DNA from: Pocillopora damicornis
Taxonomy: Eukaryota
NCBI RefSeq assembly: GCF_003704095.1
Contig: NW_020845073.1
Location: 806,001 to 870,000 of the forward strand
DNA: 64,000 bases
Direction of reading: 5' to 3'
Shown here: one piece after another, positions 23,766 through 49,900 of the stretch
Layout of the letters: each line of letters opens with the position of its first letter
Position numbering within the stretch: position 1 is the stretch's first letter
Notes under the pieces: model-generated
Told to the model about the DNA's origin: nothing
Database searches by the model: none
The model's input: only the letters and a program-made list of their open reading frames with translations
Program-made: the position numbers and the translations under genes

Positions 23766-24196
23766 CGCATGTCTAATTCAGCTGATTTTCGCAAAATCTA
23801 TTATGGGTCTGCTCCTATCAGGATTCAGTCACTTCCAAATCAAGGGTCTATCCCATGACTCTTTGAGAACTTCCGGTTTGCAAATTAAAGATGGCGCGAA
23901 CTTTGGAACTTCGCGGAAAAAATGTGAGTGAAAGTTAGTCCAGAAAACAGTTTTCATGACAATTCATTGTCTTGTTTAGAAATTTATAAGTAATTATGTA
24001 CATATCAAGACACCCAGCGTATCTTTAGAGACTCCTTTTAGAGAGCACTCAAACCGGTTTTTATTGTAAGAGCCTTCTATGTTTACGATTTTTTTCAAAT
24101 GAGCCAGCAATGTTATACAGCCACGAGAAGCTAAGCTTCGATAGGTACGTGGTGTTTCCAGCACGTTCTGAGGCATACGCGAACTCGGAGGTTTTG
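23766..24196. promoter_or_regulatory. Putative bidirectional promoter/5' UTR region between EPG5 and MESD
   Basis: 431 bp between divergent ATGs; ETS-type ACTTCCGGT at 23869-23877 and YY1-type AAGATGGCG at 23888-23896. Confidence 0.6.
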
Positions 24197-27214: not shown

Positions 27215-30200
27215 CAGCTTTCTTAACACTTGAAAAGTGATGGTCTCTACATTTGTATCCATCGTAGACTACACGCAGTCCCTCCTTTTTGGTGTAGTCT
27301 GTTGCACAAGTAAAAAATATCAGTGAAAAAATTGTTATTGCACCACAGGGAGCTGTAGGAGTGACATTGATACACTGTGGTGCACTGACATCAACTTTTT
27401 TTTCATTTATTCTTTTTGACTCGCACGACAGACTGCCAAAAAGGAGGGACTGCTCATGGCTGGTATTCATGGGAATCTCCCACTAAAACTGATTTTATCT
27501 GGACTACCTTTGTTTTAGTCATACAAACAGTTGAACATGGATTGACATTGGAAGTCCTATGTGTTTCCTCAAAAGTTTGCTGGTTCAGATGTAGAGAAGA
27601 TTTTTTCTCTGTAGATTTACATAATTTTTGTTTTCAGCCCTTGCAATGTAGTGCAAAAGTCACAGAACCAAAAGCTTTTTTCATTCAGCTTGGACATTGA
27701 TAATACTTGAAGACTCTGATCTCTCCTCACAATATTTAGTCAATATCATTATAGGTAATCAATTTTGAAGTAAATCAATTATTCATATTGTACTCTTGGA
27801 AAACTTGGTTTTTTCACTTTTTTTCAAGCATAATGCATATTAAATGACTACTAATTTTGTGAAGTGCTGGTTTGTTTGTTTGAAAATTTCCTCATTTTGT
27901 TGCAGTCAAGTTGTTTATCAAAGCACACAAGTGATGTTTTCTCTGCTTGAAAAGCCAAAGTTACTCATGGCAAGCATATATTTGCACCCTTGTTTCCTTG
28001 TATAAATGACAAGCTAGGGGTTAGAGTATAGAGGAGTACGAAGACAGGAAGATTGTGACCACCTGCCTGGTGACAGTGACACACCCAATTCCCAGACTTC
28101 AAGCAAGTTCTTCTTTTTTCATGTTGTTGTCCATTGAATTTCCGTGTTCCTGGGCTACCCACCCTTCTTATAATCAAGCTCACCAGATTTTAATTCAGCC
28201 TTGAATAAGTTGACGAGGTGAGAATCCGGAGATATGCCCGTTCTAAATCTCTGCCTTTTTATTTTGGCTTTCAAAACCCTTCAAAACAATTTACCAATAT
28301 TGTTGAGAATGTTTAGTCTGTGAAAAAGACAACGGAGAAAAAGAGAGTCTAAGCGTTACCATTAGGAACCAAACGTATCACTGATGTACATTGCATGTTT
28401 GGAAGAAGCAAATCAAACTCTTGCTGCAATCACTCACAGCCAAATCCAAATTATCACAGATATTGAGTTTATAATCTTGCCCCTTCTCCAGCAAAACCGA
28501 CGATATTCAAGCGACTCAAATCAATGCAAGACCATTACAAACTTCCTCTCACCGAAGTCTCGCTTTGATTGCAGCATGTACTCGCGGGATCCCTTCTTGA
28601 ATATGTTTGGTCTTGCAGGCGGCAAAAGAGTTGCTGTGTCTTCGATTCTTCAGAAGAGGCCGCGATTTACAAAGTGTCACAGTTTCATGTTGATCTTTAA
28701 GTTGATTGAAGCCATTCGAAGGCTGGACTAACAGCTTAGGAAAAGGTCCAGAAAACGATACGCAACACAAGTGTCAAACATCGTGCCTAATGTTTACCTG
28801 TACTATGCAAATGTAAATCTTTCACTCACTTTGTTAGGATTTATTTAATGAGAAGGCAAAATTGAATTCATGACATGCTAATCTGTATTCAGTCGTAAAT
28901 TGTATAAAAGAAATTAGGTAACACACTACGACACCATGAACCACAAACTCGCCGCTACGTTTGCGCCACGTGGCGTCAAACAAAGAATCTTGTCGACTTT
29001 CGGTAAACGACAGAGGAATTACTCAAACGTTAGCCATTGACTTTCTCAGATTTAAAAAAAATGGTGAGACACAGTGAGAGTAAGCCCCGTTCAGATAACA
29101 TCAGCGATTGATGTCACCTTGCATAACTTTGCTTCGACCACGTCCTTCTCTCGTCCAGCAGCTCTGCGATTGAAGCTTCTCCGCCGGGCTCATAGAGCCG
29201 GAGACTCAAGAAAAACATGTTTCTTTACGACTGACACTTTCTGTCATATGTCCGGGGACTTTNNNNNNNNNNNNNNNNNNNNNNNNNNNNNNNNNNNNNN
29301 NNNNNNNNNNNNNNNNNNNNNNNNNNNNNNNNNNNNNNNNNNNNNNNNNNNNNNNNNNNNNNACTGAATGCAGATTAGCATGTAATTCAATTTTTTTCTT
29401 CTCATTAAATAACTTCTATCAAAGTGAGTGAAAGATTTAAATTTGCACTGTTCAGGTAAGCAATAGGCACGATGTTAGGCACTGTGTTGCGTACCGTATT
29501 CAGGACCTTTTCCTAAGCTGTTAGTCCAGCCTTCGAATGGCTTCAATCAACTAAAAGGTCAACGTGAAACTGTGAAACTTTGTAAATCGCGGCCTCTTTT
29601 GAGGAATCGAAGACACAGCAACTTTTTTTGCACCCTGCTAAACCAGACATCCAAGAAGGGATTTAGTGAGTACATGCTGCAATCAAACTGAGACTTCGGT
29701 GAGAGAAAGTTTGTAATGGTCTTGCGTTGATTTGAGTAAGTTAAATAATGTCGGTTTGCCGGATAAGGGGAAAGATTGTAAATTCAATATCTGTGATAAT
29801 TTTGATTTGGCCGTGAGTGACTGCAGCAAGCTTTTGATTTGCTTCTACCAAACATGCACTGTTCATCAGGCTCCTACTGGTAAAACATTCTCAACAATAT
29901 TGGTAAATCGTTTTGAGGGTTTTGAAAGCCAAAATAAAAAAGCAGAGATTTAGAACGGGTATAACTCCGAAGTCCGGAGTACCACCTTGCCAACTTATTC
30001 AAGGCAGAATTAAAATCTGGTGAGTTTGATTATAAGAAGGGTTGGAAGCCCAGGAACACGGAAAATTCAATGGACAACAACATGAAACAAGAGGAACTTT
30101 CCTGAAGTCTGGGAGTTGGGTGGGTCACTGTCACCAGGCGAGTGGTCACAATCTTCCTGTCTTTATAATCCTCTATACTCTTCTAACCTCTAGTTTGTCA

Positions 30201-30999
30201 TATATGCAAGGAAACAAGGGCTCAAACAAATGCTTGTCATGAGTAACTTTGGCTTTTTAAGTAGAGAAAACATCGCTTGTGCGCTTTGATAAACAACTTA
30301 ACCACAACAAAATAAGGAAATCTTCAAACAAACAAACCAGCACTTCACAAAATTAGTAGTCATTTAATATGCATTTTGCTTGAAAAAAAGTGAAAAAACT
30401 AAGTTTTCCTAGAGTATAAATATGAATAATTGATTTATTTCAAAATTAATTTTTCACTACAATGATATTGACTAAACAATGTGAGGAGAGATTAGAGTCT
30501 TCAAGTATTTTCAACATCCAAGCTAAATGAAAAAAGCTTTTGGTTCAGTGCCTTTTGCACTACATTGCAAGGGCTAAAAATAAAAATTATGTAAATCTAC
30601 AAAGAAAAAATCTTCTCTACATCTGAACTAACAAACTTTCGAAGAAACAGATGGGACTTCCATTGTCAATCCATGTTCAACTGTTAATATGACTAAAACA
30701 GATGTATTCCAGATAAAGTCAGTTTTGATGGGAGATTCTCATGAATACCAGCTACGAGCAGTCCATCCTTTTTGGCAGACTTTGGTGTAAGTCAAAAAGA
30801 ATAAGTGAAAAAAAAAATTGATGTCAATGCACCACATTGTATCAACATCACTCCTAAAGCTCCCTGCGGTGCAATAACAATTTTTTCACTGACATTTTTT
30901 ACTTGTGCGACAGACCATGCCAAAAAGGAGGGACTGCTTGTAGTCTACAATGCATACAAATGTAGAGACCATCACTTTTTTCAAGTGTTAAGAAAGCTG
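27215..30999. repeat. Apparent inverted duplication A/A' (~27215-28890 vs ~29363-30999) around a 100-N gap at 29263-29362
   Basis: For example CAGCTTTCTTAACACTTGAAAA (27215) matches the reverse complement at ~30978-30999, and GAAGCCATTCGAAGGCTGGACTAACAGCTTAGG (28708) matches the reverse complement at ~29510-29545. Confidence 0.9.
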
Positions 31000-31381
31000 A
31001 TTTTAATTCATTTAATCCTGCAAAGATTAAAATATTTTAGGACCCAAATCCCGCGCAAATGCTTGGAATTCAAATAGCCAATCAGAGCAACCATTCCACT
31101 CTCTCCAATGGTTTAGTATATACTAAAGCCTATTATCGATCATGAGTAGTTACTTTCTACATGGATCGCCACGTTGCAGTTGCATACTGCTGATCTTCTT
31201 TCTCTCTTCAGTTTACATTCTCTTTGACAATATATGCGCCCATTGCGTTGGAACGCCAGTAAACTTATACAAATAAAATATATATTCATGTATCCTGCTG
31301 TGGTTAGTGATAAATAAACAGACGTAGTTTGGAACCGTCTTTTCGAGTGCCTCAGCGTTTTGTCGTTGTCTGGTTTACTAG

Positions 31382-33020
31382 AGTCAAGGTCTCAAGGAGT
31401 TATTTCATGACAAGTGCGAGGATGTTATTAGCTGGTTGAATGGCACTGCATTCACGGAGGGCTGGGCTCTATACGCTGAGAATCCGCTGATCGCTACAGA
31501 AACGAATTGCACCGCGTTCGCCCCCTATCGAGTTCGCCCCTTCGAGTTCGCCCCTACCTTATGCCGTGTTCGCCCCCACACTTTTCGAGTTCGACCCCAG
31601 CAAGTCGAGTTCGCCCCTTGATTGAGTGATATCCAGATGAGTTGATTTGTGACGAAGGCACTAGCAGAATGTGCCAAATGTCACGTCAGCGACGACCATT
31701 TTGAATTTCGGCAATTGCGTGGAACCTGCTTGGGAACTGGGTTGACGGAATCAACTAAATACTCCGCATGGGATCTGGGGTTACCAGAAATAACTGTATA
31801 CACTGAAATTGTGATAAAGAGAACCACACGGTTTATCTAACGAACACGAAATGTGTTGATCGTAACAACCAGACTTGAGAAGATGCAAACCACGCTTTCA
31901 TCGCGACAGCATTGCTTAAGTTGTTAGACTTGTACCCGTTTAGCTTTATTTATGAAAGTAAGACTGAAGAATTTACTCATAAACTTACGAATCAACTCAT
32001 CTGGATATCACTCAATCAAGGGGCGAACTCGACTTGATGGGGTCGAACTCGAAAAGTGTGGGGGTGAACACGGTATAAGGTAGGGGCGAACTCGAGGGGG
32101 CGAACTCGATAGGGGGCGAAAGCGGCGGATACCACAGAAACAGACGCTTACGCCGACAAACCGTTGCAGCTGTATGGCATGATCAAGTGGCAAATATGGC
32201 AGGCACTGCGCTTGATGTAGACTCTGGACTTCAATATAAAGGTCGGTTGAAGTAAAGAATTGTTTTGCTTTTTGTCGAAAATAGTCCAGCCCTGCATTTA
32301 TTTTCCTTTGTAGTACTCTGCGATTCGTCTGGAAAACTCGTGTAACTCTTGCAACCGCGAATGGATCACGTATATTTTTCTGCACTCGAAGCTGAATACG
32401 CGTTTTCACATTCAAATCACATATGTGGCATTCCCACTACATCTGATTGGTCGTTTTGATTACTTCAAGCTTCGTTTCTGCGACACGCAATGCGAATCAG
32501 CTGCAGGAATATCGGAACCTGAGCACTTGTGAAAACGAAAATTGTGTAAATGATCTGTCTCTTTCACTAATACCCTTTGAGGATTGGCAATCTTATTTTC
32601 TCTCCAGGAATGAAACGACGGGAAGCGTCGAAACTCTTTGCCGAGAAAGCCTGGGACAGAACTGACAAAGCCGAGAGAGACGTTGCAAGGTATCAAAGCA
32701 CCCCGAATCAGGCCATCGCGAACATGATTGGCCAGCTGCGGATTTGGCAAGTGCAAAATGATACTAAGGCCAGAATTTAGGCACATAAAAAGATTTTCAA
32801 TGAAAAAGACTTTCATTATCAGATTTTATCACAGGGATCCTCGCCACTGACTCATTTGGAAAGTCACATGAAGAAATTTGCGGACTGCGTCATTCAGCCA
32901 CATTCAGAGGGTTGCGAATACATTATAAGGAGCCTAAGTGACGAAATAGTCATGGATGAGGTTGCCAAGAAGCCCCATAAACCATTTCGAGACAAACCAT
33001 ATCAAGAACACTTTGATTGA
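31382..33020 (+). pseudogene. Truncated pseudogene copy of the last two exons of the DUF885 gene
   Basis: Lacks the upstream exons. Lesions: 12-nt deletion (NGISYYTAF > NGTAF), 630-bp MITE insertion, 1-nt deletion (TTGATGTAGAC vs TTGATGATAGAC at ~32215), and premature TAG at 32778-32780 (GAG in the intact copy). Confidence 0.9.
31504..32133. mobile_element. 630-bp non-autonomous DNA transposon (MITE) with ~150-bp TIRs made of GAGTTCGCCCC subrepeats and an 8-bp TSD
   Basis: TSD ACAGAAAC at 31496-31503 and 32134-32141; absent from the paralogous site at ~47845. Superfamily not assignable from sequence alone. Confidence 0.92.
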
Positions 33021-35869
33021 ATTTGGTATAGAACGCTGTATGCAAATGAAAGAAATAATCTCCTCAATTATCAAACCACTTGGCTGGGGTTCACTGCCTG
33101 ATATCAATAGAAAAAGTTTTTTTCTCTCGCCGCTGCAGAAGGTCTGCTGAAGCGAAAATATCTGAAATTGACTAAAAGCCGATAATCAAGTCGTTTCAAA
33201 AAGAAAACTCTTCGTATGAGAGCTTTTAATAATTCACTGCCACCAATAATTGAGACATTTGTTGACTTCACCTTTCTGATGAGTTTTCTGCAAAAACTTT
33301 TAGCAAAGGGAAAACGTGCGGGTGACTTTAACCAAATAGGCGACAAATTGATAGCTAGCGAGACGTAGAAAAATTTGTCGTTATTATAAATAACAACCAA
33401 AAGAAAAATGACATTTGGAAAGCTCGCAGATAAAGATCTCATATAACTTCCACAGAGCTACAATGTTAAGTATTTAATCAATAAGAACTTGATTGTCAGC
33501 AAAGTTTAAGGATTGTAGGCAATTTCGTATTCGCTCTACACTACCGCTTGCAATTTATGGCTCAAAAATAAAAGAAAAAAATCTCTCTCTCTCTAATCTA
33601 AGGTATCTGTTAGCGTATTTTTTTTTTTTCAAAGAACTTAGCGCAGCACATGTTTCAACATGTGTTATCGTAAGAACCATTATCAGAACTCGTGCTAATT
33701 CATATTGGACATTGATACAACTCTTTGTTGGATATTAGCTGTGTTTTTATGTCGCTTTACTTGAATTGCTTTTCTTTTTGCGATAGACAGAAAAATGGGA
33801 CGATCACGAGGAGTGTTATTTTTCCTTTTAGGCCATCTGGAGTGGCATGAGTATGGGCGTTAGATGTTGCGGTAACATTGCACGGAGCATCGAAACACAG
33901 TTTCATTTTCATTCTTTTATCCCCAGAATTTTTCAATCAGCCATTTTACCTTACAAAATAAATACTCTGTCAAAAAAAAAAAAGGGTTAGGAGGACATAG
34001 GTAAACAGTGGGGCTGGGCTGGGTGGGGGTATGATTCGAGTTGACATTGATTTCTTAGAAGAAGCATTGCAAGAACGTCTGATAGACAGTACGGAGAATA
34101 TTGGGGGGTTATGGTTTGATTTTGTTGATGTATGAGAATCAATTCGCACAGCGCTAATAAATTGTCAATAGAATCATTAATTCAAAAAAATACCGACCAC
34201 AAGGTGGAACTAACCATTCGAGTCGTGGCATGATTAACGATTAACTCTTAATGGCACAACAGTACGAGAGTTTTGTTTACAAGGTATCATCTTGAGTTAT
34301 AGAAGGGGGTAAATGTGGCGCTGCGTCGGTGAGAAAGTGTAACAGGATAATTTAGTATTATACGGCTGAGTTGATAACGTAAATTGGTTTCCGTTCTAAA
34401 CTCTTTAGGGCGGACAATTTACGTTATCACCTCAGTTGATAATACTAAATTGTCCTATCTTCATTTATATATCACTGCCGATTTTGATCTACGACCAAAA
34501 AAAAGGAAAAAAAGGGAAATATATGAGAAATTAAAAATTGAAGAGGTGCATGTCTCATTCTACGGCTTTGAATTCATACAAGCAAATATTATCTCAGTTC
34601 AACACAAAAGTTTCAAAGGAAAGGAAAAAGCATCCGCGTTTCTTTGCACGCCTCTGAATTCATATAAATAAACATTGTCTCAGGCGGCTCGAGATAGGAA
34701 GTTCATTCCTTTGCGCTGAAGCCACATAATCAATGCTTTAGCTGAAACGTTTATCGGTTCCAAAGGCTATAATGCTGATTGTGGCAAAAGATTTTAACTC
34801 TACGTTAACAGCAGCTGCCAGCACGACTGAAAACCGGCCGAAGCAACATGTGTTATCACTTTATTCAAGCGGGCTCTTTACAATAAAATATTACGAGTTT
34901 TTATTTTCACTTTGTAATTTCTAAAGAACACATGATTTTATTATGTTAATATGTGACCGTAGGTGACCCCAGTCTTTCACTTCATTGGGTTCTAGCTGAT
35001 TCGTGCAGATTTTCGGAAAATTTGAATATTGGAATGGACTGATGAACATCGAACGGGATGATAACTGTGATAATAAAACTTTCAACAATGCTTACGGCTA
35101 CGGAAAAAAGGGAAACTGAAAAAGGGTGCTGAGCTCAAAGATACAAGTATGACAAGAAGAGACGAATGTACGACTCAAATAACTTTTTCCAGCTTACAGT
35201 AGATTAAACTCATCATCTGTTGCGATATTTTAAATTTCTTTTCTGTTGCAAAGCGTAGGAGAGTTCTTCTCATTTCAAGGCTGAAGCTTGATCACATATT
35301 CACTTTTCTTTCAGCTTTAAAAATTATCTCTCAAAACAAAAATATTGAAACAAATGCAGCGTCAAGAATGTTTTCCAAAACATGAACGAAAGACATTTTT
35401 CACCACACAATCACGAATGATAACACAAATGTCAACTCTTGCTCCTCGTCGCACGTTTATATACTAGATATATCAAATATCAACAGGCGTGAAAGACGAA
35501 CCTGTTAGTTTGACAAGATCGTGACAACGTGAAAGAATACTATCTCTATTCTTTCAGGTACGTGACAGGTCTTTAGACTAAGGTGTCGTAAACCGTGATC
35601 AAAGACAGAATTGCTCTAATTTTGCGCTCGTATTGGGAACTAAGGTCACCTCATGTGAGACTTCGAGGAAGCTTAATATTAGTAAGCTATCTTATTAGAC
35701 TTAAGAACTTAATTTGCAATTTCATCACTCACTTAAAAGTCCATGCATCGGCGCAAATCGTTTTAGCTTTAAAAATTAGAAGTATTTTAAAAATATAAAC
35801 TGAAGGAAAACCTCATCTGTGCTCAAATTTTCCCACTCAAGTAACTATATGAGAAAAGAATAAAGGGGG

Positions 35870-36070
35870 TAAATTTCTAAAAAAAACTGTGGTGCTGTGT
35901 CGGTAGGAGAGTATAACAGGGTAATTTAGTGTTATCAACCGAGTTGAAAAAGTAAATTGACCACCGTAAAGAGTTTAAAGGCTGACGTTTCGGAGCGTTA
36001 GCCCTTCGTCAGAGCTCTGAAACGTCAGCCAATTTACGTTTTCAACTCAGTTGATAACACTAAATTACCC
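35870..36070 (-). mobile_element. Penelope-like element terminal remnant with inverted ends and a minimal hammerhead motif
   Basis: Minus strand 36015-35980 reads GCT-CTGACGA-AGGGCTAACGCTCC-GAAACGTC-AGCC; flanked by inverted GGGTAATTTAGTGTTATCAAC / GTTGATAACACTAAATTACCC. Confidence 0.65.
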
Positions 36071-36939
36071 TATATCAGAAAAGGACTGAAGTTGGGGTTC
36101 CGTCATATTAAAAAAAAACTGAAAATGATTTAGTCTAAAGTGAAGTCACACTATAAAACCAACCGAGTAGAAAGCCGATAACAAATTACTATCTTAATTC
36201 AATGAATTGAAGGCAAACAATCTACAATATGTTTCTCTCGCCACCATCGTGAAAGAAAAAAATTAGGCAGATTCTGGCAGGAAATCAAAGGCGTTGATGT
36301 GTGACAGCGTGCAGATTTATGTTGGATAAAAGCTGCCCTAATATTAAAAAATTCGTTATTGAAAAAAAAATCAAGTAAAGGAATAGTCAAGGTTGTTCTA
36401 CCGATGCACGCTACGAAATTGTGATTTATCACAACAAAATTCCAGAAATTTAAGCGTTTTCTAATATACATCCATTTTGATCTGACCATTATATATACAC
36501 AACAAGACTGAAATTTTGCTTTCCCGGGCGATCATATGGTATACTTAAGGACTCCACTCAATTTTATTTGAAATGCGATCTAGATAGATTTGCTGTTTTC
36601 AATCTTAATACCTTCCTCTCATTCTACAAAAATTCTATCGTATTTTAAACTCGCTAAACAAACGCTTTTTTCTTTATTTAAAAGAGAGCTTTTTGTCCCT
36701 AACTTTTCCCTTCCGTGTTCCACTATTCCACATCCTGATTTTACAACGATACGGTGTTATTGAATCCGAAGGAAGCCAAGCGGAAATGAGACATCCTATT
36801 GGGATAAATATCCTCATTTCAATGGGCAAAAAGCCACAATGGGCGCTATTTAAATTTGGCGTGCTTCGCACGAGGCCTACCATAGCTGTCTTTGTAGCGG
36901 GTACGGTTTGGAACTAAGCAAGTATTTCCTACCGAGTAA

Positions 36940-39044
36940 ATGATGGCAAGTAACGTCATAATTTCATCTCTGATCATCGCCGTTTTCTTAATCGGTTTGG
37001 CGCAGAAAGGTGAGTAAGGAAACGAAATAGTAAGGTTTTCTTTGTTACATTGACGACATTTCTAAAGGATTTACATTTCATGTCCATATTTTCATCTCTT
37101 AATCGGTTTCATCTCTTAATCCCTATAGTTTGACCGTTTATCAAACAAGCGATTATTTTCACAAACGATGTAGTTCAATGATGAAAAATACACATGCACT
37201 AGAGTTCCAGTGGTTCCGCAAATCTACCAGATAAACATCGAAGCACAAATCCGAAGGTTTGGAGTTCGATTCCTTACTTAAGACTTGTTTTTTTTTTTTC
37301 CCTTTATCCCATGCTCGAGACTATCTTTCTAAAATATACCAACAAAACCCACCAGAAAAGGTGGATAAATAAATGAAAGCATAATCTTTCGAAAAAAATT
37401 CCGCAAGTCTCTTGTAACGTATTATTTTCCTTTCTTTCTGAATCTTAACTCCACCGTGATTGCCATATCAGATGTCATTTAAGATGCGAAGAATCACTCA
37501 CTGTGGTTTGACAAGTCTCAACCACTACCAATTAAAATTCACCTCTGGTTTACCACGTTGTGATAATTCGTTCGAACGACGGAGATTTAGTCGCGAAATT
37601 CCCTAGCCTGTCTCTCTCACAGGCGGCCACCTTGTTTGACAATAGCGACACACGAAAGAAATACAATAAAATGAAATGTGTTACAATTACGAATAAAGCA
37701 CCAAATGAAATCATTTTCACGCAAAATCTCTAAAATACCGCAGTCTGTTGCGTGACCACGGTTCATCACGCAATGCTTTGAGAGAAACGAAAATATTCCC
37801 AGCACTTTCAAAGGTTTTATTTTTGGGTGAGAAAGAGCGTTAAACACTTTTCCAAGACTTTTTAGATTCTATTCTTCTGTTTAATACAACTGAAGCGAAG
37901 TGCGCGATTCCGATCTGAGAAGTCACGTGACTCGATTACCAAGTAAACATTATATGGCCGTAATTTTCTCTTGGATTACGTAATTCGATGAAATCGCTCG
38001 CATATCCTATCTTTAACAGCTTCTGCAATGTTCAATAAAATCAGGAGCTCCTGGTAAAACCTATCTTCCGTTTTATCTCCTGAATAAAGGAAAAACTTTC
38101 TACAACTTTCCTTAGAGAGACAATAGGAGATAACCGACAACTTTTAACAACCTATGCTTATTTTATATGGTCCATTCTTCTCCTCAGGCGTCTCCTTAAG
38201 TTGCTACGTGTGTCATTCCACAATTTCTTGGAAGGATTGTTTTTACACGAGTAGGGTTGGCAACTGCGACTCAAATAAGGAAGTGTGCTTTAATGCTTTT
38301 ACTGCTGAGAAGCAAAAAGATGATCAACAAAAACTCCAGTTCGCTGCTTCTTGTCTTCCTAAGGTAGGATGACGGTTTGACTGACTCTGTGTTATTCTGT
38401 CTCATTTGGTTGGACTCGCACATGCCCATTACGGTGTGAATTATTTTGGAAAATTTTTCATAAACTTTTCAAAAGCTGTTAAAGGTGTTTGTGAGTATTT
38501 ATCGGGCATCATCACAATCCTACCTTTTCCAATGTGCCTTTTTTTTTTTTAATCCCCTCTTTTTTGGTGATTATAAACCCTTGCGCAGAGGTAGAGCTCG
38601 GGGAAGGGTCTAGAGGTCACAGCTCTCAAATATTTCTAAGCCTAAGTAAATGTGTAAGCAAAAATTTTCGTGTTTTCTGAATCAAAGTTTGGACCTCCTG
38701 TAGCAAAAATTTTGGGATCCTCCTTACGAAGAAGTGCGATGAGTAGGGAAATGAAACATCCACTGACCGTTTTGAATGCTATGAATATGAAACGAGTTCT
38801 TGTTCCTTCCATTCTATTCATTTCTCTTTGTGATCCTTCCTTTTACCTCCAGAAAAACTGCAATAAAGAAACATGCAGAGAAGATTTGGGTTCGAGTGGA
38901 GAGAATAAAGCTGTCAATTGTGAGATCAGTTGCTGTGAAACAGACAAGTGCAATATGGTAGCATCCAAAGGACAAGTCTCATCAATCTCCATTTTGGGTC
39001 TAATTATTTCGCTCCTATTTTGCTATAGTTTACCAAACTTTTGA
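36940..39044 (+). CDS. Ly6/uPAR (three-finger, CD59/quiver-like) GPI-anchored protein, copy A, ~145 aa
   Basis: Exons 36940-37009, 38188-38363 and 38853-39044 (438 nt, in frame). Signal peptide MMASNVIISSLIIAVFLIGLAQKG; LSCYVC start; 10 cysteines ending CCETDKCN; hydrophobic C-terminal GPI-signal-like tail. Confidence 0.9.
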
Positions 39045-39719
39045 ATTTTTATTAGTTTTTCGAATACATACTCTTCTGGTTAAGACAGTTAGGGCTACCA
39101 CATGAACCCAGAACAGCTATGAAGAAAGTCTCAAACCACAGCTTTTTTTAAAGTGAATAAGTAGCGCGTGCCACTGCATAGGAGATATTTACATTCATTT
39201 GGAAGTATGGGATGAAAAACAGATTTTGACCAACTCTTATGATTAAAAGGTTTAGATTTGTAAAATAAAAATAAGATGAAACATTCTGCATCTTGTTCCA
39301 CCATCCTGTATTTCCATGGAGACATTGTGGGTTTCATCATTCAAAAGGTGACTTGTAAACTAGTGTGACCATATCAAAACTAAGAGGAATCCATGGTAAC
39401 ACAAGTAGTGCATGGTTTTGATGAATGAAACAAACAAAGAAACAAACGACAAATTGTAAACTTTCTGGATGACAAAAATATATTAGCTTATATTCAAATT
39501 AGTGAAAAGAAATAAAACTTACAATAAATTAAACATCAACTTTGAGTACCTTTTATATTGTCAGTTCACTGTCTAATGCATCGAATATAAAATCTGGTAT
39601 TGAAAAGCTCTCACGCAAGTTCAAAAGTTATTTTATGGTCAAGGTCAAAAACAAGTTTTAACTCCTCCATTAAGTTTAAATTTTGCCTTAGTTTCTTTGC
39701 ATCAAAATAATTGTAGTAT

Positions 39720-39792
39720 TGATAATAATAATGGTAATAATAATAATGACTAAGAATGATTATACTTTTAGTAATAATTATAATGATAAGAT
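39720..39792. repeat. Degenerate (AAT)n microsatellite
   Basis: gataataataatggtaataataataatgac... Confidence 0.7.
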
Positions 39793-41146
39793 AAAATGTG
39801 TACTGTACATTAGTATTTTGATTACTTTAATTTATGTATTGTAAGTAGATTATGTAATGTAAATAGCTTATCGCACCTGTTGAAAAAAAAATTAGAAAAT
39901 GATAATCATATTGATAACTGAAAAAGAGAAAAAAAGGAANNNNNNNNNNNNNNNNNNNNNNNNNNNNNNNNNNNNNNNNNNNNNNNNNNNNNNNNNNNNN
40001 NNNNNNNNNNNNNNNNNNNNNNNNNNNNNNNNNNNNNNNATGTAATCTACTTACAATACATAAATTAAAGTAATCAAAATATTAATGTTCAGTACAGGAA
40101 CAAGTCGAAAGAAGGACATTCTAGAGCCCACCAAAGTCTCATACCCAGACCTTCCACGGCNNNNNNNNNNNNNNNNNNNNNNNNNNNNNNNNNNNNNNNN
40201 NNNNNNNNNNNNNNNNNNNNNNNNNNNNNNNNNNNNNNNNNNNNNNNNNNNNNNNNNNNNNNNNNNNNNNNNNNNNNNNNNNNNNNNNNNNNNNNNNNNN
40301 NNNNNNNNNNNNNNNNNNNNNNNNNNNNNNNNNNNNNNNNNNNNNNNNNNNNNNNNNNNNNNNNNNNNNNNNNNNNNNNNNNNNNNNNNNNNNNNNNNNN
40401 NNNNNNNNNNNNNNNNNNNNNNNNNNNNNNNNNNNNNNNNNNNNNNNNNNNNNNNNNNNNNNNNNNNNNNNNNNNNNNNNNNNNNNNNNNNNNNNNNNNN
40501 NNNNNNNNNNNNNNNNNNNNNNNNNNNNNNNNNNNNNNNNNNNNNNNNNNNNNNNNNNNNNNNNNNNNNNNNNNNNNNNNNNNNNNNNNNNNNNNNNNNN
40601 NNNNNNNNNNNNNNNNNNNNNNNNNNNNNNNNNNNNNNNNNNNNNNNNNNNNAAGTTGATGTTTAATTTATTGTAAGTTTTATTTCTTTTCACTAATTTG
40701 AATATATAAGCTAACATATTTTTCTCATCCAGAAAGTTTATAATTTGTTGTTTGTTTGTTTGTTTGTTTCAAAACCATGTGCTACTCGTGTTACCATGGA
40801 TTCCTCCAAGTTTGGATAAGGTCACACTCGTTTAAATGTCACCTTTTGAGTGATGAAACCCACAATGTCTCCAGGGAAATACAGTATGGTTGAACGAGAT
40901 GCAGAATGTTTCACCTTTTTCCTATTTTACAAATCTAAACCTTCTTTAAATCATAAGAGTTGGCCAAAATCTGCTTTTCATCCCATGCTTCCAAATGAAC
41001 GTAAATATCTCCTAACCAGTGGCAAACTCTACTTATTACTTCAAAAAAAAGCTGTGGTTTGAGACTTTTTTCATTGTTGTTCTGGGTTCATGTGGTAGCT
41101 CTAACTGTCTGAACTAGAAGAGTGTGTATTAAAAAAACTCACAAGT

Positions 41147-43361
41147 TTAGTAGTTTTGGAAACTCATAAGCTTATAGTTTTGGAAACTATAACAAGATAG
41201 GAGCGAAATAATTAGACCCAGAATGGAGATCGATGAAACTTGTCCTCTGGATACTACTGGAATATTGCACTGGTCTGTTTCACAGCAACTGACCTTACAA
41301 TTGACAGCTTTATACTCTCCTCTCCCAGCCACCTCTTTTCTGCATATTTCGTTATCGCACCTTTTCTGGAGGTAAAAGGAAGGATCAAAAAGAAAAATGA
41401 ATGGAATGGAAGAAACAAGAACTTGATTCATATTCATAGCATTCAGATAGGTCAGCGGATGTTTCATTTCCCATATGTGTAAAAAGGTTTCAACTCATCG
41501 CACTTACTCGTAGAGAGGATCCTGAAATTTCTGGTACGGGAGGTCCAAACTTTGATTCAGAAAACACGAAATTTTTGTTTACACATTTACTTAAATAGGC
41601 TTCGAAATATTTTGAGAGCCAAGACCTTTAGACCCTTCCACAAACTCTGCCTCTACCCGAGGGTTTATAATCATCAGCCAAAAGGGGATTGAAAAAAAAA
41701 AACGCACATTGGAAAAGGAAGGATCGTCATGATGCCCAGTAAAAACCGCCAACATTAGCATCAACAGCTTTTGAAAAGTTTATGAAAAATTTTCAAAAAT
41801 CGGTCGCACTGTTGTGGGCATGTGCGAGTCCAACCAAATGAAACAGTATATCTCAGGGTAAGTCTTCCCATCATCCTACCTTAGGATCACAATAAGCAGA
41901 GAACTGGAGTTTTTGTTGATCATCTTTCTGCTTCACAGCAGTGTAAGTATTAAAGCACACGTCATCATTTGACTCGCAGTTGACAACCGTACTCTTGTTA
42001 AAACAATCCTCCCAAGAAATTGTGGAATAACACTTGTAGCAACTTAAGGAGAGGCCTGAGGAGAAAAATGAACAATTTAAAATAAGCATAGGTTGTTAAA
42101 GTTGTAGATTGGCTCCTACTGTCTTTCCAGGGAAAGTTGTATAAAGTTTTTCCTTTGTTCAGGAGATAAAATGGAAGATAGGTTTTTTTCAAGAGCTCCT
42201 GATTTTATTGAACATTGCAAAAGCTCTTAGAGATAGGATTTGCACGCCATTTTATCGGATTACGTAATCCAAGAGAAAATTACGGCCACATAATGTTTAC
42301 TTGGTAATCGAGTCACGTGACTTCTCAAATCGGAATCGCGCAGTTCGCACTCATTTCTTGTATCAGTTGTATTCAACAAAAGATTAGAGTTTAAAAAGTG
42401 TTAGAAAAGTGTCAAACGCTCTTTCTCAGTCAAAAATTAAATCTTTGAAAGTGCTGGGAATATTTTCGTTTCTCTCAAAGCATTGCGTGACGAACCGTGG
42501 TCACGCACCAGATTGCTGTACTCCAGAGATTTTGCGTGAAGAATGAGTTTATTTGGTGCTTTATTCGTAATTGTAACACATTTCATTTCATTGTACTTCT
42601 TTCATGTGTCGCTATTGTCAAACAGGGTGGCTGCCTGTGAGAGAGACAGGCTAGGGAATTTCGCGACTAAATCTCCGTCGTTCGAACGAATTATCACAAC
42701 GTGGTAAACCAGAGGTGAATTTTAATTGATGGTGGTTGAGACTCGTTAAACCTCAGTGAGTGATTCAGCAAAAGATGTATCTTCGCATTTTAAATTAAAT
42801 CTGATATGGCAATCAAGGTGGGGTTAAGATTCAGAAAGAAAGGAAAATAATACGTTAAAAGAGACTAGCGGAAATTTTTTCGACAGATTATGCTTTCATT
42901 TATTTATCCACCTTTTCTGCTGGGTTTTGTTGGTATATTTTAGAAAGATAGTCTCGAGCATGGGAAAAAGGAAAAAATAAAACAAGTCTTAAGTAAGGAA
43001 TCGAACTCCAAACCTTCGGATTTGCGCTTCGATGTTTATCTGTTTGAGACTATTGAGAGGAACTGTGCCGCCATTTTAGGTAGATTTGCGGAACCACTCA
43101 TCTGGAACGCTAATGCTGTGCATTTTTCATCATTGAACAACGGCGTTTGTGAAAATAATCGCTTGTTTGATAAACGGTCAAACTGTAAGGGACGACCGAT
43201 TAAGAGATGAAAATATGGACGTGAAATGTAAATCCTTTTAAAATGTTGGCAATGTAGCAAAGAAACCTTCCTATTTCGTTTCCTTACTCACCTTTCTGCG
43301 CTAAGCCCACTAAGAAAACAGCGATGATCACAGATGTAATGATGACGTTACTTGCCATCAT
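41147..43361 (-). CDS. Ly6/uPAR (three-finger) GPI-anchored protein, copy B, ~154 aa
   Basis: Exons 43361-43292, 42055-41880 and 41365-41147 (465 nt, in frame). Signal peptide; LSCYKC; 10 cysteines ending CCETDQCN; hydrophobic tail. Confidence 0.9.
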
Positions 43362-44197
43362 TTACGCGGTAGGAAATACTTGCTTAGTTCCAAATTGTAC
43401 CTGCTTCAAAGAAAGCTAAGGTAAAATAGCCTCGTACGAAGCACGCCAAATTTAAATAGCGCCAATTGTGCCTTTTTGCCAATTGAAATGAGGATATTGT
43501 ATCCCAATAAGATATCTCATTTCCGCTTGACTTCCCTTGGATTTAATAACAACGTATCGTCGTAAAATCAGGATGTGGAATAGTGGAACGCGGCAGGGAA
43601 CAGTAAAGGACAAAAAGCTCTCTTTTAAACGAAGAAAAAAGCGTTTGTTAAGCAAGTTTAAATTATGATAGAATTTTTCTAAAATGAGAGGAAGGTATTG
43701 AGATGGGAAACAGCAGACCTATCCAGATCGCGTTTCAAATAAAATTCATTGGAACCCTTAAGTATACGATATGATCGTCCGGGATCGCAAAATTTCGATC
43801 CTGTTGTGTATTGCCTAAATTCCTGGAATTCTGTTGTGATGAATCACAATTTCGTAACGTGCATCGATAGAACAACCTTGACTATTCCTTTACTTGATTT
43901 TTTTCAATAATGAGTTGTTAATATTAGGGCAGCTTTTATCCAACACAAATCTGTGCTCTGTTACACATCCTCACCTTTGATTTCCTGCCAGAATATGCAT
44001 AATTTTTTTCTCTTAAGATGGTAGCAAGAGAATCATATTGTAGATTGTTTACTTTTAATTCATTGAATTAAGAGAGTACCTTCTTGTCGGCTTTCTAGTC
44101 GATTGGTTTTATAGTGTGACTTCACTTCACACTAAATCATTTTCAGTTTTTTTTATAAATATGACGGAAGCTTCAGTCCTTTTCTTTCTTTCTCTAA

Positions 44198-44435
44198 GTA
44201 ATTTAGTGTTATCAAATGAGTTGAAAACGTAAATTGGCCACCGTAAAGAGTTTAAAGGCTGACGTTTCAGAGCTCAGACGAAGGGCTAACGCTCCGAAAC
44301 GTCAGCCTTTAAACTCTTTACGGTGGTCAATTGATGTTTGTTTAACTCAGTTGATAACACTAAATTACCCTGTTATTACTATTCCACCAACGCAGTACCA
44401 CAGTTTCTTTAGAAACTTGCCCCCTTTATTCTTTT
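44198..44435 (+). mobile_element. Penelope-like terminal remnant forming a ~170-bp hairpin; hammerhead core mutated
   Basis: Paralog of the 35870-36070 element; the core reads CAGACGA instead of CTGACGA at 44275. Confidence 0.6.
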
Positions 44436-46972
44436 CTAGTATAGTTACTTGAGTGGGAAAATTTGAGCACAGATGAAGTTTTCCTTCAGTTTATATTTTT
44501 GAAATACTTCTAATTTATAGAGCTAAAACGATTTGCGCCGATGCGTGGACTTCTAAGTGAGTGATGAAATTGAAAATTAAGCTCTTAATTCTAATAAGAT
44601 AGCTTAATAATATTAAGCTTCCTCGAAGTCTCACATGAGGTGACCTTAGTTCCCAATGCGAGGGAAAAATTAGAGCAATTCTTTCTCTTTGATCACGATT
44701 TACGACACCGGAGTCTAAAGACCTATCACGTACCTGAAAGCAGAGAGATGGTATTATTTCACGTTGTCACGATCTTGTCAAACTAGCAGGGTCGTCTTTC
44801 ATGCCTATTGATATTTGATATATCTGATATATCAACGTGCGACGAGGAGCAAGAGTTGACATTTGTGTTATCATTTATGATTGCGTGAATAAAGGTGATG
44901 GAGAAAAATTTCAGGTGGTGAAAAATGTCTTTCGTCCATGCTTCGGGAAACATTCTTGGCGTTGCTTTTGTTTCAACACTTTTGTTTTGAGAGATGATTT
45001 TCAAGCTGAAAGGAAAGAGAATATGTGATCAAGCTTCAGCCTTGAAATGAGAAACACTCTCCCACGCGTTGTAACAGAAAAGATATTTAAAACATCTAAC
45101 AGATAACGAATTATTCTACTGTAAGCTAGAAAAAGTTATTAGATTCGCAGATTCGTCTCTTCTTGTCATATTTGTATCTTTGAGCTCAGCACCCTTTTTC
45201 AGTTTCCCTTTTTTCTGTAACCGTAAGCAATGTTTCAAAGTTATATTATCACAGTTATCATCCCGTTCAATGTTCGTCAGTCCATTCCAAATTCAAAATT
45301 TCCGAAAGTCTGCACGAATCAGCTGGAACCCAATGAAGTGAAAGACGGGGGTCACCTACGGTCACAGATTAAAATAATAAAATCATGTGTTCTTTAGAAA
45401 TTAAGAAGTGAAAATAAAAACTACTGATATTTTGTTGTGAAGAGCTGCTTAAATAAATGATAACACGTGTTGCTTCGGCCGGTTTTCAGTCGTGCTGGCA
45501 ACTGCTGTTCACGTAGAGTTAAAATCTTTAGCCACAATTAGCATTGCAGCCTTTGGAACCGATAAACGTTTCAGCTAAAGCATTGATTACGTGGCTTCAG
45601 CGCAAAGGAATGAACTTCCTGTCTTGAGCCACCTGAGACAATGTTTATTCGTATGAATTCAGAGTCGTGCAAAGAAACGTGGGCGTCTTTCTCCTTTCCT
45701 TTTAAACTTTCTGTGTTGAACTGAGATAATGTTTGCTTGTGTGAATTCAAAGCCGTATAGTGTAACCTGCATCTCTTCAATTTTTACTTCTCATATATTT
45801 CCCTTTTTTTCCTTTTTTTTGGTCGTAGATTAAAATCGGCAGTGATATGTAATTGAAGATAGGACAATTTAGTATTATCAACTGAGGTGAAATTGTCCGC
45901 CCTAAAGAGTTTAGAACGGAAGCCAATTTACATTATCAACTCAGCTGTATAATACTAAATTACCCTGTTACACTTTCTCACCGACGCAGCGCCACATTTT
46001 GTTCAGAAACTTACCCCTCTCTATAACTCAAGATGATACCTTGTAAACAAAACTCTCGTACTGTTGTGCCATTAAGAGTTAATCGTTAATCATGCCACGA
46101 CTCGAATGGTTAGTTCCACCTTGTGGTCAGTATTTTTTTAAATTAATGATTCTATTGACAATTTATTAGCGCTGTGCGCTGCCCGTCCTGGTGCGAATTG
46201 ATTCTCATACATCAACAAAATCAAACCATCACCCTCCAATATTCTCCGCACTTTCTATCATACGTTCTTGCAATGCTTCTTCTAAGAAATCAATGTCAAC
46301 TCGAATCATACCCCCAACCAGCCCAGCCCCCACTGGCTCGGTAAGGTTTACCTACGTCCTCTTAACCCGTTTTTTTTTTTTTTTTTTTTTTTGACAGAGT
46401 ATTTATTTTGTAAGGTAAAATGGCTGATTGAACAATTCTGGGGGTAAAAAGAATGAATATGAAATTGCCAACAATCCTTAAACTTCGTTGGCAATCAAGT
46501 TCTTATTGATTAAATACTTCACACTGTAGCTCTGTAGAAGTTATATGAGATCTCTATATGCGAACTTTCCAAATTTCATTTTTCTTTTCGTTGTTATTTA
46601 TAATAGCCATAACGTCAAATTTTTCTTCGTTTCCCTAGATGTCGATTTGTCGCCTATTTGGTTAAAGTCACCCACACGTTTGCCCCATGCCAAAAGTTTT
46701 TGCGGAAAACTTATTAGAAAGGTGAAGTCAAAAAGTGTCTGAATTATTAGTGGCAGTGAATCATTAAAAGCTCTTATATGACGAGTTTTCTTTTTGAAAC
46801 GATTTGATTATCGGCTTTTGGTCAATTTCAGATATTTTGGCTTCAGCAGACCTTCTCCAGCGGCAAGAGAGAAAACATTTTCTATTCATATTAGGCATTG
46901 AACCCCAGCCAAGTGGTTTGATAATTGAGGAGGTTATTTGTTTCATTTGCATACAGCGCTCAAAACCAATAT

Positions 46973-49900
46973 TCAATCAAAGTGTTCTTGATATGGTTGG
47001 TCTCGAAGTGGTTTATGGGGCTTCTTGGCAACCTCATCCATGACTATTTCGTCACTTAGGCTCCTTATAATGTACTCGCAACCCTCTGAATGTGGCTGAA
47101 TGACGCAGTCCGCAAATTTCCTCATGTGACTTTCCAAATGAGTCAGTGGCGAGGATCCCTGTGATAAAACCTGATAATGAAAGTCTTTTTCCTTGAAAAT
47201 CTTTTTATGTGCCTCAATTCTAGCCTTAGTATCATTTCGCACTTGCCATATCCGCAGCTGACCAATCATGTACGCGGTGGCCTGACCCGGGTTGCTTTGA
47301 TACCTTGTAACGTCTTTCTCGGCTTTGTCAGTTCTGTCCCAGGCTTTCTCGGCAAAGAGTTTCAACGCTTCCCGTCGTTTCATTCCTGGAGAGAAAATAA
47401 GATTGCCAATCCTCAAAGGGTATAAGTGAAAGAGACACAGGTTATACACACAACTTACGTTTTGACAAGTGCTCGGGTTTCGATACTCCTGCAGTTGTTT
47501 TGTATTGCGTGTCACAGAAACAAAGCTTGAAGTAATAAATGTGATTTGAATGTAAAAAAGCGCATTCGGCTTCAAGTGCAGAAAAACACGCACGATCCAC
47601 TCGCGATTGCTTTAGTTTGTATCTGATCGGTTGCAAGAGTTACACGAGTTTTCCAGACAAATTGCAGAGTACTGCAAAGAAAAACCAATACAGGCCTGGA
47701 ATATTTTCGACAAAAAATAAAAAAATTCTTTACTTCAACCGACCTTTATAATGAAGCCCAGAGTCTATCATCAAGCGCAGTGCCCGCCATATTTGCCACT
47801 TGATCATGCCATACAGCTGCAGCGGTTTGTCGGCATAAGCGTCTGTCTCTGTAGCGATCAGCGGATTCTCAGCGTATAGAGCCCAGCCCTCCGTAAATGC
47901 AGTATAATAAGAGATGCCGTTCAACCAACTGATAACATCCTCGCACTTGTCATAAAATAACTCCTTGAAACCTTGACTCTAGTAAACCAAACGACGACAA
48001 AACGCTGAGATACTCGAAAAAACGGTTCCAATCTACGTCTGTTTATATATGACTAGCCACAGCAGGATACATGAATATATCTTATTTGTGTAAGTCTAAA
48101 GGTGTCCCATCACAATGGGTGCAAATATTGTTGAAAGAGAATGTAAACTGAGGAGAGAAGAAGATCAGCAGTATGCAATCGTAATGTGGGGATCCATGCT
48201 GTAAGTAACTACACATGATCGATAACAGGCTTTAGAATATACTAAACCAGCGAAGAGTGTTGAATGGGCGCTCTGATTGGCTATTTAAACTCCGAATATC
48301 TTTTGCTATTAACCTCCAAGTATTTGCGCGGAATTTGGGTGCGAAAATATCTATATATAATATATCTCCCATTAGCCACCTCCACTTCGGTGATGATCTG
48401 TTAATTATTGTTGAGTGAGAAAAAAATTTACATGACTGAGTAAGGAAAGTGCGGTTAGAAATATCTTGTTATCCGCGTATACCTGTGTGTGGTGCCCAGG
48501 CCTTGCCTCGTGTGCAGCAACTGAGAGAGCACTGTATTTTGGTCCCAGGTCCTTCATAAAGAACGGCAGTCTATACTGCGCAGGTTTGGTGCAATCGCTA
48601 TCACTGGATCTGTAACTCTGGGATCCAGTCCCTGGATTGAAATTTGAGACCAACTGAACCGGACAATTTGGAGTGCTTTGATGTTCACCAGTGAAATAAA
48701 ACATGTGAGTCGTTTTTGGTTCGAGATCACCAAGCAGAGCTGGATAAAATAATTAAATGACGGGGAAAACTTAGGCATTAGTTAAAATAACCAGAGTTAT
48801 TTTTTAGTATGGCAGCCAAAATGCTCACTGATTTTCGGTCACGTTATGTAACACATGACACACTTCCCTTTTGCCTATATAAACTCTCTACTCTTTTAAG
48901 CTATTTTACTTTCTTTTCTTTTAGGCCACAGATTTCTTTTGGCAGGCCTGACCTGTTAGATGTAATTGTCCCACATGCAAGAGTACTCCTTTCTTGAAGT
49001 TCCTCAAACAAAGTGACTGAATGCATCGATATGTGATTTATATCACGTTTTCTATTTGAGATAAAATACTTACAGTTCACATATTCAAACCACGCTTTCA
49101 TAGCTTGATATCTCTTGGGACAGTAAATCTTTGCCGTCGCCATACTGGTGCACTTATCAAATGCGTCTTTGTTACTCTCGTTCTGTGGAATCTTCTCGTC
49201 GTTGAAATACATGCTACGATCTTCCAAATGTTTTTTAAGTTCTTCTATGGCTTGGTCTTCACATGTTTTGTTTGTAATTTTCTTAGCAATTTCAACCGCC
49301 TTTGGATAAAGCTGACCAAGCATTCTCTCCCCTAAGGAATACACCTCATCTGGTGTCATTTCTATTGTCGTAAAGTAAGGAAGCATCATCTCGTAGGCTC
49401 TTTTTCCATTCAAGGACTCTCCGGTAGGTAGTTTTCCAGTAGTTCGTATTTTCGTATTTTTTCCATATTTGTAAATGTTCGATAAAGGTAGCGAAGCCAA
49501 GCCGCTGGACAATATACTCGGGGCGCAGTACTGCGAATGGTTGAAGGCCAAGTAAGTTAATAACGTATCCAGCGGTTTCCCTAAGTATGCCACCAAAGCC
49601 TCATTTATGGAGGTATTAACAGAGACCTTGTGTTTCTTCTCCCATGTGTCAAAGGCGCGTTTATCGAGTTTTGCCAGCCATTTTGGATCAACAATTTGTT
49701 GCGTGAATGATTCTCTCAGCACACCTTCAAACATATAGGATCAGTGCAATAAGTCTAAAAAATCGCATAAGTTTGAAAAGAGTAAGCGTTGGCCTCACGA
49801 TGCAGTTCATTTCGGTCAATGAAATTTGAATGAGTGGCTTTTGATCTATACCAAGCTTTAAAAATACTTTCCTCCTTGGAAACGAGCCATTCCCCCTGAC

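What the first reader, a model, noticed from the sequence alone, without database searches (positions are those of the whole stretch)
27215..48350. Two adjacent 'palindromes' are probably one tandem duplication with a flipped contig
The layout is A-gap-A'|B-gap-B'. Both gaps (29263-29362 and 39940-40039) are exactly 100 N, a usual placeholder for unknown size, and each sits at a symmetry centre. Reversing only the middle contig (29363-39939) gives A..B'|A..B', a direct tandem duplication of a unit >10 kb with a single junction at ~31000-31032. That would put both Ly6 genes and both DUF885 copies on the same strand. Divergence of ~7% in a sampled intron, plus copy-specific indels and a novel A/B junction, argues for real paralogy rather than uncollapsed haplotypes. 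The gaps could hide further Ly6 copies.
Basis: partly seen in the sequence, partly recalled or inferred. Interest (0 to 1): 0.7.

Follow-up and report, generated by a model that had tools for sequence, protein, structure and literature searches.

The report
Flipped contig hides tandem Ly6 pair
Two apparent giant palindromes in a coral genome assembly are a real, old duplication whose middle piece was most likely scaffolded backwards; the duplication made two expressed copies of a cell-surface Ly6 gene whose outer domain appears to be diversifying fast, for a reason not yet tested.

Summary
The layout A|N100|A'-B|N100|B' is confirmed; the arms differ by about 10% (not 7%). The copies are real paralogues. 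A, A', B and B' each occur as near-identical contigs in 4 of 4 public DNA runs, and single contigs bridge the 31.0-kb junction in 3 of them. The middle DUF885 copy is only a decayed two-exon fragment. Orientation was not read directly, because nothing spans the gaps. Three indirect lines favour a direct tandem duplication with the 10.6-kb middle piece flipped (about 85%). First, the single junction has tandem geometry. Second, duplicates on this scaffold are inverted far more often across 100-N gaps. Third, the P. verrucosa NCBI isoform numbering fits one gene holding both Ly6 types, hence one strand. The palindromes are thus most likely an ordinary scaffolding error. The biology lies in the two Ly6/uPAR genes: both are intact and spliced, with 35 nonsynonymous against 2 synonymous differences in the LU domain and many exon-2 variants among corals. 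They are a candidate recognition pair under diversifying selection, function untested. Extra copies hidden in the gaps are neither shown nor excluded.

The parts
24110..26104 (+). MESD/boca LDLR chaperone gene, single-copy left flank, outside the duplication
   Evidence: Pfam Mesd; tblastn of P0088/P0089
27215..28893 (.). Arm A, left end of the duplicated unit; no coding signature found; 28894-29262 continues unmatched up to the gap
29263..29362 (.). 100-N gap 1; public contigs run 35-37 letters beyond 29262 and stop
29363..30999 (-). Arm A' (reverse complement of A, 10.3% substitutions), start of the 10,577-base middle piece 29363-39939 that is likely flipped
31000..31031 (.). Duplication junction: 32-base spacer joining the outer end of A to the outer end of B; bridged by single contigs in X2, X4, X10
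31032..39852 (+). Arm B (middle copy), starting inside a DUF885 intron
31385..33020 (+). DUF885 pseudogene fragment (start approximate): last two exons only, with a MITE insertion, a 12-base deletion, a frameshift near 32217 and a premature stop in the last exon; dN/dS about 1
31504..32133 (.). 630-base MITE, long inverted ends (139 bases, 96%), 8-base target-site duplication at 31496-31503 and 32134-32141; absent from the right copy; dispersed family
36940..39044 (+). Ly6/uPAR gene, middle copy (M): exons 36940-37009, 38188-38363, 38853-39044; 145 aa, intact, spliced
39940..40039 (.). 100-N gap 2; contigs of both copies run on past 39939 with related letters not found elsewhere in G000
40040..40652 (-). 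121-base mini-contig (start of B') followed by a 492-N gap
40653..48350 (-). Arm B' (right copy), continuous with the unique right flank
41147..43361 (-). Ly6/uPAR gene, right copy (R): exons 43361-43292, 42055-41880, 41365-41147; 154 aa, intact, spliced
46976..50895 (-). Full DUF885 gene (five open stretches with Pfam DUF885 hits; ends approximate); the duplication breakpoint at 48350 lies in one of its introns

Best explanation
This is a real segmental duplication of at least 10 kb that is most likely a head-to-tail tandem repeat whose middle 10.6-kb piece was placed backwards between two unsized gaps. Shown: two copies about 10% apart, one junction joining the right end of the unit (inside a DUF885 intron) to its left end, decay of the orphan DUF885 exons, and two intact, spliced Ly6 genes. 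Inferred: the true order is flank-A-G-B'-junction-A-G-B'-flank, where G is an unassembled stretch at which both copies broke. The scaffolder would then have pulled each end of the middle piece toward its homologue. Also inferred: the duplication survived because of the Ly6 pair, predicted GPI-anchored three-finger surface proteins whose exposed domain is likely diversifying under pressure from a variable extracellular partner (microbe, symbiont or non-self cell).
For: Paralogy: A, A', B and B' each occur in 4 of 4 DNA runs from four studies, most listed pieces under 2% from their own copy. The junction is bridged in 3 of 4 runs (1, 2 and 6 other letters over 1.1-1.3 kb). Contig depths over flank, junction, B and B' are alike in X2 (88.9, 88.8, 83.9, 84.7) and X10 (6.9, 7.0, 7.8, 6.8). 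M-type proteins of the window and of P. verrucosa form one clade, 98/100. Orientation: the flip gives one direct repeat. In 664 kb of C1708, duplicate alignments with no 100-N gap between them are 26 direct and 4 inverted, against 35 and 22 across such gaps (p 0.015). Of 36 such gaps, 21 have homologous flanks, 12 direct and 9 inverted. On a 36.6-Mb P. verrucosa contig, isoform X1 (153 aa) and X4 (120 aa) are R-type, X2 (145 aa) is M-type, and a 144-aa protein joins the one-Met start of X1 to the M body. That numbering fits one gene on one strand, with R upstream of M as the flip predicts. Proximity-ligation scaffolding writes 100 N per join and makes more orientation errors (PMC5545040, PMC4772016). 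Ly6: 35 nonsynonymous against 2 synonymous differences in the LU domain, omega 4.6-6.6, p 0.011-0.001, all 10 Cys kept, against omega 0.9-1.2 for the DUF885 fragment. Both genes are spliced in RNA runs, and the fold matches uPAR, C4.4A and CD59.
Against: No read, contig or transcript spans either gap, and G was not found in G000. The P. verrucosa argument rests on names and protein sequences, not coordinates or a gene id, and concerns another species. No R-exon-1 to M-exon-2 joint appears among the 7 joints listed for 3 RNA runs and 1 DNA run. The control alignments are not independent and include this locus (without it the flank count is 12 direct, 7 inverted), and most control pieces are shorter than 10.6 kb. 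Contig depth is a poor copy-number measure: X4 and X14 vary 1.5- to 3-fold. The selection signal is partly low synonymous divergence (2 of 53 sites): LU pN (16%) exceeds intron 1 (8.2%, p 0.0005) but not intron 2 (14.8%, p 0.65). The domain boundaries were chosen by me, and the whole-gene test is not significant (p 0.07-0.29).
Confidence: 0.85

Rival explanations
1. The displayed orientation is true: a tandem duplication followed by an inversion of the middle segment, or a circular copy of the unit reinserted backwards into its own centre, with both breakpoints hidden in the gaps.
For: Nothing spans the gaps. Four inverted duplicate alignments occur without a 100-N gap on the same scaffold. 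A 10.6-kb piece carries more orientation signal than the 1-3 kb pieces that make up most of the control.
Against: It needs a second event with both ends inside unsized gaps. The junction itself is the tandem type. The P. verrucosa isoform series fits one strand.
Confidence: 0.11
2. Uncollapsed haplotypes: the middle piece is the second allele of a single-copy region.
For: Coral genomes are often highly heterozygous (PMC10236652), and the arms sit at scaffold gaps.
Against: 4 of 4 runs hold both versions, each close to its own copy, while the copies differ by 10%. The B-to-A junction cannot exist in a single-copy region and is bridged in 3 runs. Both Ly6 types occur on one P. verrucosa contig, and both are spliced within single RNA runs.
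Confidence: 0.02
3. A larger array: the gaps hide further units or Ly6 copies, so part of the exon-2 variation is paralogous rather than allelic. This is compatible with the flip.
For: G is unassembled. X17 holds an M-like intron-2 contig with an R-like 19-base insertion. M-type exon 2 falls into at least three motif groups. Short-read coral assemblies lose tandem copies (PMC10236652).
Against: Only two body types appear among the named proteins of the 36.6-Mb contig. MESD and the R-type Ly6 are 9 accession numbers apart on one 3.18-Mb P. meandrina-labelled contig (weak). Contig depths are near flank level in X2 and X10.
Confidence: 0.15

Closest known systems
Tandemly duplicated genes of coral genomes (PMC10236652)
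   Same: Local duplication in a Pocillopora coral, two-gene cluster, poorly assembled from short reads, putative surface or immune protein
   Different: Here the unit and its junction are mapped, one breakpoint cuts a neighbouring DUF885 gene, and the copies are separately assembled but likely mis-oriented rather than collapsed. That paper's main text has no hit for Ly6 or DUF885.
Orientation errors at 100-N joins of proximity-ligation scaffolding (PMC4772016, PMC5545040)
   Same: Exactly 100 N on both sides of a short piece; mixed orientation of duplicates at such gaps on this scaffold
   Different: Which scaffolder made these gaps was not established; homologous flanks probably add a bias toward the flipped state (inference).
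Single-domain GPI-anchored Ly6/uPAR proteins (CD59, Ly6, Bouncer; Pfam PF00021)
   Same: Signal peptide, 10-Cys LU domain ending CCxxDxCN, hydrophobic tail, three exons, fold matching uPAR, C4.4A and CD59
   Different: Longer domain (about 92 aa) with two short predicted helices; just under the Pfam cut-off; no known ligand; nearest other families at most 35% identical.
Pdcyst-rich of Pocillopora damicornis (PMC2728513)
   Same: Same species label, similar size (147 aa), 23-aa signal, LU domain, GPI signal
   Different: A different gene: a 7-residue part of its antibody peptide is absent from all six frames of the window, and neither copy has Asn at residue 75.

Membership tests
Direct tandem segmental duplication | Two genomic copies in one haploid genome | tested here: met
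   both copies in 4 of 4 DNA runs; both Ly6 types on one P. verrucosa contig
Direct tandem segmental duplication | One novel junction joining the unit's right end to its left end | tested here: met
   31000-31031 joins the outer ends of A and B; bridged in X2, X4, X10
Direct tandem segmental duplication | Copies on the same strand | tested here: inconclusive
   indirect support; nothing spans the gaps
True palindrome / inverted duplication | Continuous sequence across the symmetry centre | not testable with these tools
   both centres are 100-N gaps; only short contigs were available
Uncollapsed haplotype | Half depth, no novel junction, individuals carrying only one version | tested here: not met
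   (depth is a rough figure; the junction and co-occurrence carry the weight)
Ly6/uPAR (LU-domain) proteins | 8-10 conserved Cys with a C-terminal CCxxDxCN motif (as given in PMC2728513) | tested here: met
   10 Cys in both copies, CCETDKCN and CCETDQCN; Cys conserved across 100 relatives
Ly6/uPAR (LU-domain) proteins | Three-finger beta fold | tested here: met
   AF2 model of the P. verrucosa M-type protein P0020, mean pLDDT 79.9; best hits uPAR E 6.5e-4, C4.4A, CD59 TMt 0.72
Ly6/uPAR (LU-domain) proteins | Pfam UPAR_LY6 above the curated cut-off | tested here: inconclusive
   23.1 and 24.1 bits against a cut-off of 24.8 for the closest full-length relatives
Ly6/uPAR (LU-domain) proteins | GPI anchoring at the cell surface | not testable with these tools
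   hydrophobic C-terminal tail seen in the sequence; no predictor or experiment run
Polymorphic recognition receptor | Excess amino-acid change in the exposed domain | tested here: met
   35 against 2 in the LU domain; 18 of 555 against 29 of 7761 differences in X2; caveats on intron 2 and mixed species
Polymorphic recognition receptor | Allele-specific ligand binding or phenotype | not testable with these tools
   no data

The most novel reading that the evidence does not exclude
The duplication created a two-gene, hypervariable Ly6 recognition locus specific to Pocillopora, with exon-2 variants kept by balancing selection. It would act in self/non-self, pathogen or gamete recognition, as Bouncer does in fish, possibly with one signal exon spliced onto either LU body.
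Probability: 0.2. Interest if true: 0.7.

Novelty: new member of a known kind. Interest (0 to 1): 0.33.

Why it matters
The palindromes should not be read as biology: short pieces between 100-N gaps on this scaffold have unreliable orientation, which affects any strand or synteny claim in duplicated regions. The Ly6 pair is a usable lead. Coral recognition genes are poorly known, cnidarians carry about 43 three-finger proteins per genome with unknown function (PMC13719153), and a Ly6-like transcript was the only one significantly tied to Vibrio resistance in another coral (PMC8059587). A compact, expressed, fast-changing pair can be genotyped against fusion-rejection, disease or hybridisation phenotypes.

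Tried and rejected
Finding the missing centre G: a degenerate pattern from the loose ends beyond 39939 gave 0 matches in G000; two scans of metagenome contigs gave nothing (near genomes may be left out there). Laying four DNA runs on 19.9 kb filled the joint and loose-end tables with repeats, so the letters beyond 29262 were not seen. Depth over 28700-29262 as a sign of collapse was raised in X4, slightly in X2, not in X10: inconclusive. Identity with Pdcyst-rich: rejected. A cross-copy splice: not among the joints listed; contigs show presence, not absence. Runs X19-X23 had small or no word shares; only X19 was laid. No paper on this locus turned up in searches (open-access library only). No supplements were opened; the tables of PMC10236652 and PMC13719153 could list these genes.
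Full report
Observation. Self-alignment confirms two inverted pairs around two gaps of exactly 100 N: A 27215-28893 against 29363-30999, and B 31032-39542 against 40653-48350, plus 54 bases of a mini-contig at 40043-40096 that match 39799-39852. Substitution divergence is 166 of 1618 in A and 709 of 7379 in B, with many indels. Searches of G000 found only these two copies of A, of the Ly6 region and of the DUF885 3' exons, apart from dispersed repeats and one 72% relative. Named proteins identical or nearly so to window exons are labelled Pocillopora damicornis (P0043, P0088).

Anatomy. The unit starts about 1.1 kb beyond the MESD gene and ends inside an intron of a full DUF885 gene at 48350. 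The middle piece joins these two outer ends through a 32-base spacer at 31000-31031. That is the one junction a head-to-tail duplication makes, and reversing 29363-39939 gives a single direct repeat offset 10.0-11.1 kb. The middle DUF885 copy has only the last two exons, with a 630-base MITE with an 8-base target-site duplication, a deletion, a frameshift and a stop; its last exon has dN/dS of about 1. Each copy holds an intact three-exon Ly6 gene, of 145 and 154 aa.

Paralogue or haplotype. One search listed 23 runs, 14 with at least half of the words. I laid 4 of them, from four studies; one could be related to the source sample. Among the 32 pieces shown (of about 27,900), A, A', B and B' each appear in 4 of 4 runs, mostly under 2% from their own copy. 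Single contigs cross the junction in 3 of 4 runs, with 1, 2 and 6 other letters over 1.1-1.3 kb; the piece listed for X14 ends at 30947. Contig depth over flank, junction, B and B' is alike in X2 and X10 and more variable in X4 and X14; the tool warns that it is no copy number. Both Ly6 types occur on one 36.6-Mb P. verrucosa contig, and the M types form one clade (98/100), while the R types are unresolved. The duplication is therefore real and older than the split from P. verrucosa.

Orientation. Not read directly: contigs run 35-37 letters past 29262 and 49-72 letters past 39939, then stop, and the latter letters are not in G000. Three indirect lines favour the flip. First, the junction geometry: the displayed order needs a second event with both ends inside unsized gaps. 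Second, a control on 664 kb of C1708: 36 of 89 gaps are 100 N, and 21 of the 36 have homologous flanks, 12 direct and 9 inverted (12 and 7 without this locus). Duplicate alignments of 500 bases or more within 30 kb are 26 direct and 4 inverted with no such gap between them, against 35 and 22 across one (Fisher p 0.015; alignments not independent, three from this locus). Third, the P. verrucosa names: X1 153 aa and X4 120 aa are R-type, X2 145 aa is M-type, and a 144-aa protein has the M body with the one-Met start of X1. NCBI numbers isoforms of one gene by falling length (recalled), so the series fits one gene spanning both copies on one strand, R first, which is the order the flip predicts. 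The gene id and coordinates were not seen, and the bridging model may be a read-mapping artefact, though even that needs one strand. Passages of PMC5545040 (100 N per join) and PMC4772016 (more orientation errors) show that such errors are expected of proximity-ligation scaffolding; which tool made these gaps was not established. An earlier AI note on another piece of this genome reports a similar flip (a lead only). I put the flip at 85%.

The Ly6 pair. R is spliced in 3 of 3 RNA runs. M shows its exon 2-3 joint in 3 of 3 (two with variant letters at the joint) and its exon 1-2 joint in 1 of 3. No cross-copy splice is among the 7 joints listed. The LU domain differs by 35 nonsynonymous and 2 synonymous changes (omega 4.6-6.6, p 0.011-0.001), with all 10 Cys kept; the signal peptide and tail have omega below 1, and the whole gene is not significant. 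Against this, LU pN of 16% exceeds intron 1 (8.2%) but not intron 2 (14.8%), so a locally deeper history may contribute. One X2 contig over M exon 2 has 18 differences in 555 bases, against 29 in 7761 for 12 other listed X2 contigs. Among 115 records, 78 had a whole exon 2: 15 distinct M-type and 30 distinct R-type strings, varying at the same sites, with species mixed. A model of P0020 from 100 aligned relatives (of 143 found) has mean pLDDT 79.9 and matches uPAR, C4.4A and CD59; Pfam scores fall just under the cut-off. The likely mechanism, inferred, is a GPI-anchored surface binder changing under pressure from a variable partner.

Known context. Tandem gene duplication is pervasive in corals and poorly assembled from short reads (PMC10236652, passages). 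Pdcyst-rich is a different Ly6 gene (PMC2728513: abstract, passages, sections 20 and 23). Cnidarians average 43 three-finger proteins per genome, of unknown function (PMC13719153, passages). A Ly6-like transcript marked Vibrio-resistant colonies of another coral (PMC8059587, passages). Bouncer as a species-specific egg protein was seen only in a search listing with the start of its abstract (PMC10267171). Searches showed no paper on this locus; no supplements were read.

Verdict. The palindromes are most likely a scaffolding error over an ordinary tandem duplication. The fast-changing Ly6 pair is a modest, testable lead. Interest 0.33.

Noticed in passing
G000:C1708:876000-898500 and 534000-590000: Two repeat or gene arrays broken by many 100-N gaps, with duplicates in mixed orientation, several centred on a gap (888017, 895121, 573823); probably the same kind of scaffolding error
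   Followed up: partly
window 31504-32133: 630-base MITE with internally repetitive inverted ends and an 8-base target-site duplication; several copies elsewhere are 93-98% identical, so the family is young
   Followed up: partly
window 39889-40160: PolyA RNA contigs (X15, X17) cover sequence beyond the Ly6 3' end and run into both neighbouring gaps; possibly an extended 3' UTR or a convergent transcript from the missing centre
   Followed up: no
window 46976-50895: Intron-containing, signal-peptide-like DUF885 gene (Pfam calls it bacterial) in a coral; the one paper search on DUF885 and coral gave a single unrelated hit
   Followed up: no
window 27900-28750 and 29480-30110: Frameshifted ORF-like stretches in A and A' with no other match in G000 and no codon bias; perhaps a long-dead gene
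   Followed up: partly
window 26294-26627: 334-base self-inverted element made of 10-base subrepeats, MITE-like
   Followed up: no
window 27275-27453, 34344-34456, 35866-36071, 44198-44430: Short palindromic repeats; those near 35.9 and 44.3 kb have very high contig depth (about a thousand-fold), and one differs in presence or form between the copies
   Followed up: no
window 53419-58242: Minus-strand exons with CUB and concanavalin-like domains, a transmembrane-like stretch and a Ser/Pro-rich tail: a receptor-like gene
   Followed up: no
window 38335-38852 (run X17): Contig with an M-like intron 2 but an R-like 19-base insertion and a long loose end: gene conversion, another species' allele or a third copy
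   Followed up: no
window 41135-41200: A 24-base tandem unit at the end of the R coding sequence varies in number and changes the tail length among R-type proteins
   Followed up: no
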